Shown: positions 37,912 to 39,502 of the stretch, one piece after another
Position numbering within the stretch: the first letter of the stretch is position 1
Layout: every line of letters begins with the position of its first letter
Notes under the pieces: generated by a model
The model's database searches: none
The model's input: the letters and a program-made list of their open reading frames with translations, nothing else
Told to the model about the DNA's origin: nothing
Program-made: the position numbers and the translations under genes
From: Escherichia phage Ge15
Sequence record: PP359696.1
Direction: 5' to 3' (one strand)
Length of the DNA: 64,000 nucleotides

Positions 37912-37984
37912 TGGGAATTAGCCAAGTTGGTAAGGCACTGGATTTTGATTCCAGGATGCAAAGGTTCGAGTCCTTTATTCCCAG
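37912..37984 (+). tRNA. tRNA-Gln (UUG)
   Basis: Cloverleaf by eye; anticodon loop ttTTGat; T-arm aaaggTTCGAGTccttt. Confidence 0.8.
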
Positions 37985-37985
37985 C

Positions 37986-38072
37986 GCGAGAATGGTCAAA
38001 TTGGTAAAGGCACAGCACTTAAAATGCTGCGGAATTATTTCCTTGTGGGTTCGAGTCCCACTTCTCGCACCA
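37986..38072 (+). tRNA. tRNA-Leu (UAA), long variable arm, CCA encoded
   Basis: Acceptor gcgagaa/ttctcgc; anticodon loop ctTAAaa. Confidence 0.8.
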
Positions 38073-38077
38073 AATTT

Positions 38078-38151
38078 GCGGATATCGTATAATGGTATTA
38101 CCTCAGACTTCCAATCTGATGATGTGAGTTCGATTCTCATTATCCGCTCCA
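38078..38151 (+). tRNA. tRNA-Gly (UCC), CCA encoded
   Basis: Acceptor gcggata/tatccgc; anticodon loop ctTCCaa. Confidence 0.8.
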
Positions 38152-38197
38152 ATTTATGACTCGTCGTGAGACGCTCAGTTCTTTATTAGGGACTGAT

Positions 38198-38806
38198 ATG
38201 CATTTTTATCTTTATAAAATAACAAATAAAATTAATAATAAAATTTATATTGGTGTGCATTCTACCGAAAATTTAGATGATGGATATATGGGTTCTGGTA
38301 AATTATTAAAAAGAGCCCAAGATAAATATGGTATAGAAAATTTTTCTAAAGAAATATTAGAGTATTTTGATGATAAAGAATCTATGCTTGAAGCCGAGAA
38401 AAATATTGTCACAGAAGAGTTTTTAAATAGACCAGATGTGTATAATTTAAAACTTGGAGGTGAAGGTGGATGGGACCATATAAATAATTATCCTATGACA
38501 GATCAGCAACGCGAATTAATTTCATTGGGTGTTAAAAAGGCACATTCTAACGGAAAATTAAAAGGATGGTCTTCAAATGGATTAATGAAGAATGGCTTTA
38601 CTGGTAAAACTCATTCTCAAGAAGCTAAACGTAAAATAGCAAAAGCAAACGAAGCAAAAGTTTCTGCGGATGAAAGAAAAAGAAGAATAGAAATTTCTAA
38701 ATTATATGATTTTTCTAAGCGTGGTGAATTATCTAAATATGCTAAGCATATTGGCGTAAGTCATACTCAAGCAAAAAGAATTCTAAATCAAATTAACAAT
38801 ATATAA
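38198..38806 (+). mobile_element. segB: GIY-YIG homing endonuclease (SegB-like) inside the tRNA array
   Basis: N-terminal FYLYKITNKINNKIYIGVHS GIY-YIG motif; basic C-terminal DNA-binding region; T4 segB sits in the tRNA region. Confidence 0.8.
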
Positions 38807-38812
38807 ATATTT

Positions 38813-38902
38813 GGAGGCGTGGCAGAGTGGTTTAATGCACCGGTCTTGAAAACCGGCAGTCGCTCCGGCGACTCATAGGTTCAAATCCTATCGCCTCCGC
38901 CA
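38813..38902 (+). tRNA. tRNA-Ser (UGA), long variable arm, CCA encoded
   Basis: Acceptor ggaggcg/cgcctcc; anticodon loop ctTGAaa. Confidence 0.8.
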
Positions 38903-38908
38903 GTTTTT

Positions 38909-38984
38909 GCTGATTTAGCTCAGTAGGTAGAGCAACTCACTTGTAATGAGAAGGTCGGCGGTTCGATTCCGTCAATCAGCACCA
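38909..38984 (+). tRNA. tRNA-Thr (UGU), CCA encoded
   Basis: Anticodon loop ctTGTaa; T-arm GGTTCGATTCC. Confidence 0.75.
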
Positions 38985-38985
38985 A

Positions 38986-39060
38986 GGCCCTGTAGCTGGA
39001 AGGTTCAAGCAAGCGACTCATAATCGCCAGATGGTGGTTCAATTCCACCCAGGGCCACCA
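38986..39060 (+). tRNA. tRNA-Ile/Met (CAU), CCA encoded
   Basis: Acceptor ggccctg/cagggcc; anticodon loop ctCATaa; T4 has a CAU tRNA read as Ile. Confidence 0.7.
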
Positions 39061-39066
39061 AATTAA

Positions 39067-39153
39067 GGGGAGTTATCCCGTAGAGGTAGCGGTGTGGACT
39101 GTAAATTCATTGTCATTGCGACTCGGGTGGTTCGACTCCACCACTCCCCACCA
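39067..39153 (+). tRNA. tRNA-Tyr (GUA), type II, CCA encoded
   Basis: Acceptor ggggagt/actcccc; anticodon stem with G-U pairs, loop ctGTAaa; long variable arm. Confidence 0.6.
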
Positions 39154-39157
39154 ATTT

Positions 39158-39232
39158 GGATGTGTAGCTCAATGGCAGAGCGATCGCCTGTTAAGCGATT
39201 GGTTATAGGTTCGAATCCTATCACGTCCGCCA
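39158..39232 (+). tRNA. tRNA-Asn (GUU), CCA encoded
   Basis: Anticodon arm atcgc-ctGTTaa-gcgat; T-arm GGTTCGAATCC. Confidence 0.75.
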
Positions 39233-39346
39233 AATTTGTGACAACTGTCACATTAATATCTACTTGACGCGATTATAGGGGTTGAACTGATCACTCTTCT
39301 CTTAATTTCGTGTGAAGACATCTTGATTGTTGGAGTAGGTATTAAT

Positions 39347-39422
39347 GTGGCCGTAGTTCAGTTGGTAGAACTCGAGATTGTGATTCTCGTAGTCATGGGT
39401 TCGACTCCCATCGGTCACCCCA
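39347..39422 (+). tRNA. tRNA-His (GUG), CCA encoded
   Basis: Anticodon arm cgaga-ttGTGat-tctcg; T-arm GGTTCGACTCC. Confidence 0.7.
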
Positions 39423-39426
39423 ATTA

Positions 39427-39502
39427 CGGGGCATAGCTCAGAAGGAAGAGCAAGGACCTTCTAAGTCCTAGGTCGTAGGTTCGATCCCTACTGCCTCGAC
39501 CA
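39427..39502 (+). tRNA. tRNA-Arg (UCU), CCA encoded
   Basis: Anticodon arm aggac-ctTCTaa-gtcct; T-arm GGTTCGATCCC. Confidence 0.8.

What the first reader, a model, noticed from the sequence alone, without database searches (positions are those of the whole stretch)
37912..39502. Expanded tRNA complement (Tyr, Asn, His) with a segB-like homing endonuclease inside the array
I count ten tRNAs by eye: Gln, Leu, Gly, then a GIY-YIG segB-like gene, then Ser, Thr, Ile/Met(CAU), Tyr(GUA), Asn(GUU), His(GUG) and Arg. Compared with the eight T4 tRNAs as I recall them, Tyr, Asn and His are additional and Pro was not found. Phage tRNAs can compensate for codon bias or for host anticodon nucleases that cleave specific tRNAs as defence, so the added isoacceptors may reflect selection by host tRNA-targeting systems. 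The homing endonuclease may have mediated array remodelling.
Basis: partly seen in the sequence, partly recalled or inferred. Interest (0 to 1): 0.5.

Follow-up and report, generated by a model that had tools for sequence, protein, structure and literature searches.

The report
T-even phage tRNA cluster, known variant
This is the ordinary tRNA gene cluster of a T4-like coliphage, in a ten-tRNA version already present in dozens of sequenced phages, with a selfish endonuclease gene sitting exactly where the proline tRNA gene is in relatives; its interpretation is largely published, and the only possibly new detail is an odd histidine tRNA with a conserved structured leader.

Summary
ARAGORN finds the ten tRNAs at exactly the stated coordinates, a GIY-YIG gene lies between Gly and Ser, and there is no tRNA-Pro anywhere in the window.

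The arrangement is not new:
- 53 GenBank Tequatrovirus records (AV122, teqdroes, KIT03, RB18, AR1 and others) carry the same 1.8 kb at 96-99% identity.
- Phage Aplg8 has the same array with tRNA-Pro in place of the endonuclease gene: 11 tRNAs and no homing endonuclease.
- In every T-even array I compared, the endonuclease gene sits where one or more tRNA genes are missing. T4's eight-tRNA set therefore looks eroded, rather than this one expanded.

The endonuclease is a SegB paralogue, not SegB. Its leader and catalytic half are 97-98% identical to T6/T4 segB, but its DNA-binding half is unrelated and it sits at a different site.

The tRNA-Tyr is 100% identical to T6 tRNA-Tyr, which was shown in 2026 to counter the Septu defence. 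The tRNA-Asn is identical to the T2 tRNA-Asn annotated in NC_054931; the tRNA-Asn gene of strain T2L is the published preferred target of T4 SegB. Codon demand fits Tyr and Asn but not His.

Side finding, possibly new: the tRNA-His gene has T, not G, at position -1. It is always preceded in T4-like phages by a covarying 14-bp leader helix.

The parts
37912..37985 (+). tRNA-Gln (UUG)
   Evidence: ARAGORN. Rfam tRNA 67.4 bits. Lies in a block 93.6% identical to T4.
37986..38072 (+). tRNA-Leu (UAA), long variable arm
   Evidence: ARAGORN. Rfam tRNA 59.3 bits.
38078..38151 (+). tRNA-Gly (UCC). Its 3' CCAA end is the left junction of the seg cassette.
   Evidence: ARAGORN. Rfam tRNA 65.8 bits. Junction sequences compared.
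38152..38197 (+). seg 5' leader (ATTTATGACTCGTCGTGAGACGCTC...). It contains a hairpin at 38175-38196 whose 3' arm holds the likely Shine-Dalgarno sequence AGGGA.
   Evidence: The same leader follows tRNA-Tyr in T6 and tRNA-Gly in Klebsiella phage Mineola. The hairpin was reported by the terminator-like scan. Translational occlusion is inferred by analogy with the proposal for T4 segB in PMC2330249.
38198..38806 (+). Free-standing GIY-YIG homing endonuclease gene, a SegB paralogue of 202 aa. Catalytic half about 38198-38486; DNA-binding half 38487-38806 (NUMOD3 motif plus a C-terminal helix-turn-helix-like end).
   Evidence: Pfam GIY-YIG and NUMOD3 above cut-off. phrog_314 homing endonuclease, E 2e-54. 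38212-38486 is 98.5% identical at nucleotide level to T4 segB, and 38143-38486 is 97.4% identical to T6. The protein has no similarity to T4 SegB after about residue 117 of the T4 protein. It is 61% identical over its full length to the Mineola endonuclease at the Gly|Pro junction. It replaces the 79-nt tRNA-Pro segment of Aplg8.
38813..38902 (+). tRNA-Ser (UGA)
   Evidence: ARAGORN. Rfam tRNA 62.6 bits. 94.8% identical to T4 across Ser-Thr.
38909..38984 (+). tRNA-Thr (UGU)
   Evidence: ARAGORN. Rfam tRNA 72.9 bits.
38986..39060 (+). tRNA with CAU anticodon; most likely tRNA-Ile2 (lysidine, reads AUA), T2-type allele
   Evidence: ARAGORN calls it Met. It is 100% identical to the T2 gene, 76% to E. 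coli ileX, 58% to metT and only 61% to T4 tRNA-Ile. The anticodon arm GCGACTCATAATCGC and the GGCCC acceptor start match ileX.
39067..39153 (+). tRNA-Tyr (GUA), phage-type, with variable arm GTCATTGCGAC
   Evidence: ARAGORN. 100% identical to T6 tRNA-Tyr. The variable arm and T arm are identical in the window/T6 and rV5-like tRNA-Tyr; T5 shares the variable arm and differs by one base in the T stem; E. coli tyrT is 2 nt shorter there. 60% identical to E. coli tyrT.
39158..39232 (+). tRNA-Asn (GUU)
   Evidence: ARAGORN. Rfam tRNA 74.1 bits. 100% identical to the T2 tRNA-Asn annotated in NC_054931. [quoted passage not shown]
39233..39346 (+). Structured leader of tRNA-His. A 14-bp closing helix (about 39253-39266 with 39333-39346) encloses a variable hairpin and a small covarying hairpin. 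Its 3' strand ends at His position -1.
   Evidence: Minimum free energy -32.7 kcal/mol, z -4.36, 0 of 200 shuffles fold as well. In 10 distinct homologues 98.2% of cells are paired, against 36-52% in slid registers; 6 pairs show compensatory changes; 0 of 500 shuffles reach the score. No Rfam match.
39347..39422 (+). tRNA-His (GUG) with C73 but T, not G, at position -1
   Evidence: ARAGORN. Rfam tRNA 65.1 bits. Alignment with E. coli hisR shows the encoded G-1 is absent. 34 of 34 phage-type copies have T at -1; 70 of 70 other tRNA-His genes (69 in viral contigs plus E. coli hisR) have G.
39427..39502 (+). tRNA-Arg (UCU), T2-type allele
   Evidence: ARAGORN. Rfam tRNA 66.1 bits. Strongly diverged from T4 tRNA-Arg.
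39521..39871 (+). ORF of 116 aa, function unknown, between Arg and rnaD. Absent from T4, present in T2 and RB51.
   Evidence: the ORF listing. phrog_3355, E 7e-52, function unknown. Annotated in T2 and RB51.
39868..39985 (+). rnaD (species 2 stable RNA)
   Evidence: 99.1% identical to T4 rnaD.
39992..40130 (+). rnaC (species 1 stable RNA); its 3' part is tRNA-like
   Evidence: 98.6% identical to T4 rnaC. ARAGORN at relaxed threshold calls 40037-40131 'tRNA-???'.
40181..40204 (+). Intrinsic terminator that closes the tRNA transcription unit
   Evidence: 10-bp stem with 7 G-C pairs followed by a T run. Aplg8 annotates a terminator at the homologous place.

Best explanation
This is the tRNA gene cluster of a Tequatrovirus (T4-like coliphage) in one of its common natural variants. 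It is transcribed as one unit from upstream of tRNA-Gln to the terminator after rnaC.

Its backbone is the endonuclease-free T2/RB-type array: Gln, Leu, Gly, Pro, Ser, Thr, Ile2(CAU), Tyr, Asn, [leader + His], Arg, then an ORF, rnaD and rnaC. In this phage a free-standing GIY-YIG homing endonuclease gene has replaced exactly the tRNA-Pro gene.

That endonuclease is a paralogue of SegB. It has the same leader and catalytic domain but a different DNA-binding domain, whose relatives sit at the Gly|Pro junction in another genus. I infer that it cuts endonuclease-free arrays near the 3' end of tRNA-Gly or in tRNA-Pro, and that it is copied in by recombinational repair at the cost of Pro.

The tRNAs themselves add translational capacity. 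The A-ending-codon readers and Tyr and Asn match codons the AT-rich phage uses 1.5-3.4 times more than the host. At least tRNA-Tyr also replenishes, or acts as a decoy for, a host tRNA that defence nucleases (Septu, retron-Eco7 PtuAB) destroy.

Differences in tRNA content among near-identical phages are mainly the footprints of several endonuclease insertions that each delete neighbouring tRNA genes. T4's eight-tRNA set is a reduced state rather than the baseline.

Shown here: gene content, boundaries, sequence identities, junctions and covariation. Inferred: endonuclease activity and target, direction of gain or loss, and any role for Asn and His.
For: - Ten tRNAs confirmed.
- 53 GenBank records hold at least 80% of the 1.8-kb region at 96-99% identity, annotated with the same tRNAs. 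186 records hold Tyr-Asn-leader-His-Arg.
- Aplg8 aligns at 96-99% on both sides and has a 79-nt tRNA-Pro segment where the window has the 655-nt seg cassette.
- Array census: window/AV122 = Gln Leu Gly [seg] Ser Thr CAU Tyr Asn His Arg. RB51 = the same without His. Aplg8 = 11 tRNAs, no endonuclease. T4/PP01 = Pro kept, [segB] where Tyr-Asn(-His) would be. T6 = [segB] where Asn would be. T2 = an ORF where Thr would be. PBM-1 = an HNH gene where Gln would be.
- seg: GIY-YIG and NUMOD3. N-terminal half 97-98.5% nucleotide identity to T6/T4 segB, C-terminal half unrelated. 61% identity over the full length to the Mineola endonuclease between Gly and Pro.
- The junction 'tRNA-CCAA + TTT + ATGACTCG...' is shared by the window, T6 and Mineola. 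PMC2330249 shows SegB cuts at tRNA 3' ends just after CCAR and drives co-conversion of the tRNA region.
- tRNA-Tyr is 100% identical to T6's. PMC13096335 shows that gene counters Septu and that SegB amplifies it.
- Codon demand: TTA 2.7x, GGA 3.4x, ATA 3.0x, AGA 3.4x, Tyr 1.9x, Asn 1.5x.
Against: - No experiment exists on this seg paralogue. RB51 annotators called it 'truncated SegB-like', and it lacks an 18-residue segment present in the Mineola protein, so it could be inactive.
- The direction of change (loss in T4 versus gain here) is inferred from a sample of about 16 arrays, not from a phylogeny.
- The His codon demand of 0.68x does not fit supply. No defence nuclease for His or Asn is known to me or turned up in the searched papers.
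- T6 tRNA-Tyr is itself cleaved by Septu and helps only at raised dosage (PMC13096335), so a single copy may give little protection.
- The E. coli codon sample is only 57 ORFs and is rich in ribosomal proteins.
Confidence: 0.8

Rival explanations
1. Pure codon or amino-acid compensation. The three extra tRNAs exist only because the AT-rich phage needs more Tyr, Asn and His decoding than the host pool supplies.
For: Tyr codons are 1.91x and Asn codons 1.51x as frequent in 68 window ORFs as in the E. coli sample. TAT is 3.1x and AAT 2.9x. The classical T4 tRNAs all read A-ending codons that are enriched 1.4-3.4x.
Against: - His codons are rarer in the phage, at 0.68x.
- The phage and host tRNAs have the same anticodons and identical anticodon loops, so no new decoding is added.
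- Phages with the same codon usage (93-99% identical DNA) differ in Tyr, Asn, His and Pro content.
- Pro(UGG) is absent here although CCA is 1.66x.
Confidence: 0.3
2. Selfish hitch-hiking only. tRNA content is a neutral by-product of homing-endonuclease drive, because tRNA genes are the targets and flanks of SegB-type enzymes. There is no selection for particular isoacceptors.
For: Every endonuclease gene in the arrays compared coincides with missing tRNA genes. T4 SegB converts the T2L tRNA region with nearly 100% efficiency, and the tRNA region is non-essential (PMC2330249).
Against: - The identical tRNA-Tyr has a demonstrated fitness effect under Septu (PMC13096335).
- The phage-type tRNA-Tyr, with the same variable arm, is kept in three unrelated phage families.
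- The leader + His cassette is conserved with compensatory changes across T4-like genera, which indicates purifying selection.
Confidence: 0.25
3. Targeted counter-measure against nucleases specific for queuosine-family tRNAs. Tyr, Asn and His are three of the four GUN-anticodon tRNAs that colicin E5-type anticodon nucleases cleave (my own knowledge). The optional cassette would replenish exactly that set.
For: All three optional tRNAs have GUN anticodons. The Klebsiella phage Mineola array holds Tyr, Asn, Asp and His together.
Against: The calculation is post hoc. AT-rich codon demand already explains Tyr and Asn. None of the papers found and read here reports an E5-like anti-phage system. 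His arrived as a separate cassette with its own leader, not together with Tyr and Asn. tRNA-Asp is absent.
Confidence: 0.1

Closest known systems
Tequatrovirus tRNA clusters with the same ten genes (AV122, teqdroes, KIT03, RB18, AR1, CrRp10)
   Same: Same gene order, same seg gene, 98.4-99.0% nucleotide identity over the whole 1.8 kb. Annotated with the same ten tRNAs.
   Different: Only scattered point differences. This window is another member of that group.
Phage Aplg8 / IMG-VR 2974787500 array (11 tRNAs, no homing endonuclease)
   Same: Identical order and 96-99% identity on both sides, including leader + His, ORF116, rnaD and rnaC.
   Different: Carries tRNA-Pro (a 79-nt segment) where the window has the 655-nt seg cassette.
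T4 tRNA cluster with segB (NC_000866; PMC2330249)
   Same: Same flanks (trna.2 upstream, rnaD/rnaC downstream). Gln-Leu-Gly and Ser-Thr are 94-95% identical. The catalytic half of the endonuclease is 98.5% identical.
   Different: T4 keeps Pro. It lacks Tyr, Asn, His and ORF116 and has different Ile and Arg alleles. segB lies between Ile and Arg and has an unrelated C-terminal half.
T6 segB-tRNA-Tyr locus (PMC13096335)
   Same: tRNA-Tyr is 100% identical. The seg leader and N-terminal domain are 97.4% identical, including the catalytic Y17/G19 motif.
   Different: T6 SegB is the T4 type (95% identical to T4 SegB) and follows tRNA-Tyr. T6 lacks Pro, Ser, Asn and His.
T2 / T2L tRNA region (PMC2330249; NC_054931)
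   Same: The CAU tRNA and tRNA-Asn are 100% identical to the T2 genes. tRNA-Tyr differs from T2's at one base. The Arg-ORF116 arrangement is the same.
   Different: T2 keeps Pro, lacks Thr and His, and has a 133-aa ORF (T2_137) in place of Thr. That ORF resembles only the DNA-binding half of the window Seg (33% identity).
Klebsiella phage Mineola (Jiaodavirus) SegB-like endonuclease
   Same: 61% identity over the full length, including the C-terminal half. Same leader. Same position immediately after tRNA-Gly.
   Different: Mineola keeps tRNA-Pro right after the endonuclease gene. Its protein has an extra 18-residue NUMOD3-like segment. The surrounding array is different.

Membership tests
Tequatrovirus (T-even) tRNA gene cluster | Located between trna.2 and rnaD/rnaC, with high nucleotide identity to T-even phages | tested here: met
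   Flanks are 93-98% identical to T4. rnaD is 99.1% and rnaC 98.6% identical. 978 phage records match, led by Escherichia Tequatrovirus.
Tequatrovirus (T-even) tRNA gene cluster | Tandem, same-strand tRNA genes with valid cloverleaves | tested here: met
   Ten ARAGORN calls. Nine Rfam tRNA hits at 59-74 bits. Tyr is below the Rfam threshold but identical to the expressed T6 gene (PMC13096335).
SegB homing endonuclease (T4/T6 SegB as characterised) | GIY-YIG catalytic domain with the Y17-I-G19 motif | tested here: met
   Pfam GIY-YIG 26.8 bits. The N-terminus MHFYLYKITNKINNKIYIGV is identical to T6 SegB.
SegB homing endonuclease (T4/T6 SegB as characterised) | C-terminal DNA-binding half homologous to T4 SegB | tested here: not met
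   BLASTP similarity ends at about residue 117 of T4 SegB. There is no nucleotide similarity after 38486.
SegB homing endonuclease (T4/T6 SegB as characterised) | Position in the array directly upstream of tRNA-Arg | tested here: not met
   T4: Ile-[segB]-Arg. T6: Tyr-[segB]-Arg. Window: Gly-[seg]-Ser.
SegB homing endonuclease (T4/T6 SegB as characterised) | Cleaves tRNA genes at the T-arm/CCAR site and drives its own inheritance | not testable with these tools
   Only indirect evidence: the cassette begins 3-4 nt after the CCAA of a tRNA gene in the window, T6 and Mineola.
Free-standing GIY-YIG homing endonuclease genes (Seg type) | Present or absent at the same locus in otherwise near-identical genomes | tested here: met
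   The window and AV122 have it. Aplg8 and IMG-VR 2974787500 have tRNA-Pro instead.
Free-standing GIY-YIG homing endonuclease genes (Seg type) | NUMOD-type DNA-binding module after the catalytic domain | tested here: met
   NUMOD3 22.0 bits, cut-off 20.4. TIGR01453 (I-TevI-like) 47.5 bits, below its cut-off of 56.
tRNA-Ile2 (lysidine-modified CAU, reads AUA) | CAU anticodon with an ileX-like anticodon arm and a C4-G69/C5-G68 acceptor stem (the role of these pairs as TilS determinants is from my own knowledge) | tested here: met
   The anticodon arm is identical to ileX. The acceptor starts GGCCC as in ileX, against GGCTA in metT. 76% identity to ileX against 58% to metT.
tRNA-Ile2 (lysidine-modified CAU, reads AUA) | C34 converted to lysidine and charged with Ile | not testable with these tools
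   Needs mass spectrometry or tRNA-seq.
Canonical bacterial tRNA-His | Genome-encoded G-1 opposite C73 (major HisRS identity element; PMC9976931) | tested here: not met
   Position -1 (39346) is T while C73 is present. The same holds in 34 of 34 phage-type copies.
Canonical bacterial tRNA-His | GUG anticodon and cloverleaf | tested here: met
   ARAGORN. Rfam tRNA 65.1 bits. 79% identity to hisR.
Counter-defence phage tRNA (tRNA-Tyr against Septu / retron-Eco7 PtuAB) | Same molecule as the experimentally tested one | tested here: met
   100% identical to T6 tRNA-Tyr. Its variable arm is identical to that of T5 tRNA-Tyr.
Counter-defence phage tRNA (tRNA-Tyr against Septu / retron-Eco7 PtuAB) | Rescues infection under the defence system | not testable with these tools
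   Published for T6 and T5 (PMC13096335, PMC11555353), not for this phage.
Phage tRNAs that evade anticodon nucleases through anticodon-loop changes (PMC10264068) | Anticodon loop differs from the host isoacceptor | tested here: not met
   The loops CUGUAAA (Tyr), CUGUUAA (Asn) and UUGUGAU (His) are identical to those of E. coli tyrT, asnT and hisR.

The most novel reading that the evidence does not exclude
The tRNA-His cassette may be a previously undescribed non-canonical histidine tRNA system of T4-like phages.

The gene lacks the encoded G-1 that bacterial HisRS normally requires: it has U at -1 with C73 retained. It is always preceded by a 95-118 nt leader. The leader's 14-bp closing helix, which ends exactly at position -1, and a small hairpin are maintained by compensatory changes across genera.

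Three readings remain open:
- The leader directs an unusual 5' maturation, for example blocking or shifting RNase P, or creating an RNase III site.
- The leader is released as a stable small RNA like rnaC and rnaD.
- The G-1-less tRNA-His is a poorly charged decoy rather than a translational tRNA.
Probability: 0.3. Interest if true: 0.55.

Novelty: already known. Interest (0 to 1): 0.28.

Why it matters
As posed, the finding matters little. The array, its variants, the link between SegB-type endonucleases and tRNA genes, and the counter-defence role of the identical tRNA-Tyr are all in GenBank annotations or in published work (PMC2330249, PMC11555353, PMC13096335).

This check adds two useful points:
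1. A cleaner reading of T-even tRNA polymorphism. At least four different endonuclease insertions each remove the neighbouring tRNA genes from an 11-tRNA endonuclease-free array. The SegB catalytic module is combined with two different DNA-binding modules at two different sites.
2. A testable oddity. The phage tRNA-His lacks the near-universal G-1 identity nucleotide and carries a conserved structured leader. If that tRNA is charged and used, it bears on how strict G-1 recognition is in E. coli. If it is not, it suggests a non-translational role for a phage tRNA.

Tried and rejected
- Scanning IMG/VR with the upstream Trna.2 protein gave only 6 loci, too few for a real census. I used GenBank hits and pattern scans instead.
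- The sigma-70 promoter scan of 37700-40400 found 9 sites against 9.3 expected. No promoter can therefore be claimed in the Asn-His spacer, despite a TTGACG motif.
- Rfam at E<=1 gave no family for the spacer. The weak sX4, Plastid-ycf2 and YrlA hits all overlie tRNA genes and are far below gathering scores, so I rejected them.
- The minimum-free-energy fold of tRNA-Tyr is not a cloverleaf (z -1.1). I did not take this as evidence against the gene, because the identical T6 gene is expressed.
- A PDB sequence search with Seg gave no hit. NCBIfam gave only a sub-threshold I-TevI-like match.
- I first considered the Seg protein a chimera of SegB with an unrelated protein. The full-length 61% match to the Mineola endonuclease shows it is instead a distinct SegB-family lineage whose N-terminal half is nearly identical to T4/T6 segB.
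- I considered a degenerate tRNA-Pro remnant. None was found.
- I considered the spacer as a decayed tRNA. ARAGORN at relaxed threshold does not call it.
- AR1's 'segD' label was not tested, because T4 SegD was not fetched.

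
Full report
**1. Observation**

ARAGORN on the whole 64-kb window reports exactly ten tRNA genes.

The Rfam tRNA model supports nine of them at 59-74 bits. tRNA-Tyr falls below the tRNA gathering score and gives only a 30.9-bit tRNA-Sec hit. Its isolated fold is not a cloverleaf. Its sequence is nevertheless identical to T6 tRNA-Tyr, which has been detected by Northern blot and shown to be active (PMC13096335).

A GIY-YIG/NUMOD3 ORF lies between Gly and Ser. No tRNA-Pro or remnant of one exists in the window.

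**2. What the locus is**

The 1.8-kb region matches 978 phage records. Of these, 53 cover at least 80% of it at 96-99% identity: AV122, teqdroes, KIT03, RB18, AR1, CrRp10 and others, most of them annotated with the same tRNAs and a homing endonuclease.

The flanks are those of the T-even tRNA cluster. The genes trna.4/.3/.2 lie upstream. Downstream are rnaD (39868-39985, 99.1% identical to T4) and rnaC (39992-40130, 98.6%), followed by an intrinsic terminator at 40181-40204. This is a known, common Tequatrovirus arrangement.

**3. Comparison of arrays**

| Phage(s) | Array |
|---|---|
| T4 | Gln Leu Gly Pro Ser Thr Ile [segB] Arg rnaD rnaC |
| T6 | Gln Leu Gly Thr CAU Tyr [segB] Arg |
| T2 | Gln Leu Gly Pro Ser [ORF T2_137] CAU Tyr Asn Arg [ORF] |
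| RB51, PhiZZ30, phiC600P9 | Gln Leu Gly [seg] Ser Thr CAU Tyr Asn Arg |
| Aplg8 and one IMG/VR genome | Gln Leu Gly Pro Ser Thr CAU Tyr Asn [leader] His Arg (11 tRNAs, no endonuclease) |
| PBM-1 | As the window, but with an HNH endonuclease gene in place of tRNA-Gln |

Aplg8 aligns with the window at 96.3% up to 38156 and at 98.9% from 38812 onward. Its 79-nt tRNA-Pro segment stands where the window has the 655-nt seg cassette.

In every array compared, an endonuclease gene or endonuclease remnant sits exactly where one or more tRNA genes are missing. The parsimonious reading is that endonuclease insertions erode a 10-11-tRNA array. T4's eight-tRNA set is then one of the eroded states, not the baseline to which Tyr, Asn and His were added. 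This direction is an inference from a small sample. It agrees with the statement in PMC2330249 that T4 acquired segB recently.

**4. The endonuclease**

The functional start is the ATG at 38198, giving 202 aa with N-terminus MHFYLYKITNK..., the same as T6 SegB.

The leader and catalytic half are nearly identical to segB:
- 38143-38486 is 97.4% identical at nucleotide level to T6 segB.
- 38212-38486 is 98.5% identical to T4 segB.
- The Y17-I-G19 motif, whose mutation kills T6 SegB (PMC13096335), is present.

From 38487 onward there is no similarity to T4/T6 SegB at DNA or protein level. The whole protein is, however, 61% identical to an endonuclease of Klebsiella phage Mineola (Jiaodavirus). 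That gene lies between tRNA-Gly and tRNA-Pro and has the same leader.

About 55 phage records carry this C-terminal half at 95% identity or more. T2_137, the ORF that replaces Thr in T2, resembles only this DNA-binding half, at 33% identity over 115 aa.

The gene is therefore a SegB paralogue. It shares the catalytic module but has a different DNA-binding module and a different home site. It fails two defining features of SegB proper: the C-terminal domain and the position in the array.

In the window, T6 and Mineola the cassette starts 3-4 nt after the CCAA end of a tRNA gene. This matches the reported preference of SegB to cut just 3' of CCAR at tRNA gene ends (PMC2330249).

A hairpin at 38175-38196 encloses the probable Shine-Dalgarno sequence. 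PMC2330249 proposed translational occlusion of this kind for T4 segB. Activity and target of this paralogue are untested.

**5. The individual tRNAs**

- **CAU tRNA.** It is identical to the T2 allele. It is 76% identical to E. coli ileX and 58% to metT, with the ileX anticodon arm and GGCCC acceptor start. It is best read as tRNA-Ile2.
- **tRNA-Asn.** It is identical to the T2 tRNA-Asn annotated in NC_054931. The tRNA-Asn gene of strain T2L is the preferred T4 SegB cleavage site (PMC2330249). This phage is therefore a predicted recipient for T4/T6-type segB. This is an inference.
- **tRNA-Tyr.** It is only 60% identical to host tyrT. Its variable arm is identical to that of rV5-like and T5 tRNA-Tyr and is 2 nt longer than the host's.
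- **Anticodon loops.** Those of Tyr, Asn and His are identical to the host loops.

**6. Function**

I compared codon use in 68 window ORFs with 57 E. coli ORFs.

| Codon or amino acid | Window relative to E. coli sample |
|---|---|
| TTA | 2.7x |
| GGA | 3.4x |
| ATA | 3.0x |
| AGA | 3.4x |
| TCA | 2.4x |
| ACA | 2.2x |
| Tyr | 1.9x |
| Asn | 1.5x |
| His | 0.68x |
| CCA | 1.66x |

Supply explains Tyr and Asn. It does not explain His, and tRNA-Pro is dispensable despite the CCA excess.

For Tyr there is direct published evidence. Septu EcB88 and retron-Eco7 PtuAB cleave tRNA-Tyr. T6 tRNA-Tyr, the same sequence as here, rescues infection when its dosage is raised. SegB drives the amplification that raises it (PMC13096335, PMC11555353).

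No comparable evidence exists for Asn or His. It is correct for Tyr and for endonuclease-driven remodelling, and unproven for Asn and His. Its 'anticodon nuclease' version is not supported in the sense of altered anticodon loops.

**7. Side finding: tRNA-His and its leader**

The base before tRNA-His position +1 is T (39346). E. coli hisR encodes G-1, which is the major HisRS identity element (PMC9976931).

In a pattern scan of viral contigs, 69 host-like tRNA-His genes and E. coli hisR have G at -1. The 13 T4-like copies in that count have T. With a pattern that does not constrain -1, 34 of 34 phage-type copies have T; these come from the window, GenBank loci, IMG/VR and metagenomes.

In T4-like contigs the gene is always preceded by a spacer of 95-118 nt, while the other tRNA genes of the Tequatrovirus arrays are only about 0-12 nt apart. 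The spacer plus His is a cassette. It is 81-92% identical between Tequatrovirus and Klebsiella/Enterobacter T4-like phages.

The window spacer folds at -32.7 kcal/mol, with z = -4.4. Ten distinct spacers share two elements:
- a 14-bp closing helix whose 3' strand is positions -14 to -1 of His;
- a small hairpin with a TCWTGAT loop.

Across these ten, 98.2% of cells are paired, against 36-52% in slid registers. Six pairs show compensatory changes, and 0 of 500 shuffles reach the observed score. Frequent G.U pairs place the structure on the transcribed strand.

Divergent members all fold as a three-way junction closed by this helix. There is no Rfam match. My paper searches found no description of a G-1-less phage tRNA-His, within the limits of that library. 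I did not establish the function.

**8. Verdict**

The feature is real and correctly described. It is an ordinary, already sequenced and largely already explained variant of the T-even tRNA cluster.

The main corrections are these:
- The endonuclease is a SegB paralogue at a different site, and it precisely replaces tRNA-Pro.
- 'Expansion' relative to T4 is more likely erosion in T4.

The tRNA-His leader and the missing G-1 are the only elements that may be new.

Noticed in passing
window 39346-39347 (tRNA-His 39347-39422): The tRNA-His gene has T instead of the near-universal encoded G at position -1, while keeping C73. All 34 phage-type copies examined share this. 70 other tRNA-His genes (69 in viral contigs plus E. 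coli hisR) have G-1.
   Followed up: partly
window 39233-39346: The 114-nt spacer before tRNA-His is a conserved structured RNA in T4-like phages. It has a 14-bp closing helix ending at His -1 and a small hairpin, both with compensatory changes, around a variable interior. There is no Rfam family for it.
   Followed up: partly
window 40178-40213 and 40733-40768, flanking ORF 40255-40728: A 157-aa ORF absent from T4 is inserted after rnaC. It is flanked by a 36-nt direct repeat (94% identical) of the rnaC terminator, which suggests a cassette gained by recombination at the terminator. The RB51 annotation notes the same repeat.
   Followed up: partly
L014 (phage PBM-1) 1325-1933: A 202-aa HNH endonuclease gene (phrog_14736) replaces tRNA-Gln in an otherwise window-like array. 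That array therefore carries two different homing endonuclease genes.
   Followed up: partly
L003 (phage T2) 2221-2622, minus strand: T2_137, the ORF standing where tRNA-Thr is in relatives, resembles only the DNA-binding half of the window Seg (33% identity over 115 aa; phrog_16521). It is probably the remnant of another endonuclease.
   Followed up: partly
window 39067-39153; L124 601-687; L123 300-387: The phage-type tRNA-Tyr is shared by unrelated coliphage families: 95.7% identity to rV5-like phages and 85% to T5. The variable arm is identical in all three and is 2 nt longer than in E. coli tyrT.
   Followed up: partly
window 39521-39871: A 116-aa ORF of unknown function (phrog_3355) lies between tRNA-Arg and rnaD, and its stop codon overlaps the start of rnaD. 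It is present in T2 and RB51 and absent from T4.
   Followed up: no
window 40037-40131: At a relaxed threshold ARAGORN calls the 3' part of rnaC (species 1 RNA) a tRNA-like structure with a 4-base 'anticodon'.
   Followed up: no
window 38156-38197: The mechanical ORF start at 38156 (216 aa) lies 4 nt after tRNA-Gly and has no ribosome-binding site. The conserved start is 38198. The intervening leader is conserved in T6 and in Klebsiella phage Mineola and forms a hairpin over the likely Shine-Dalgarno sequence.
   Followed up: yes
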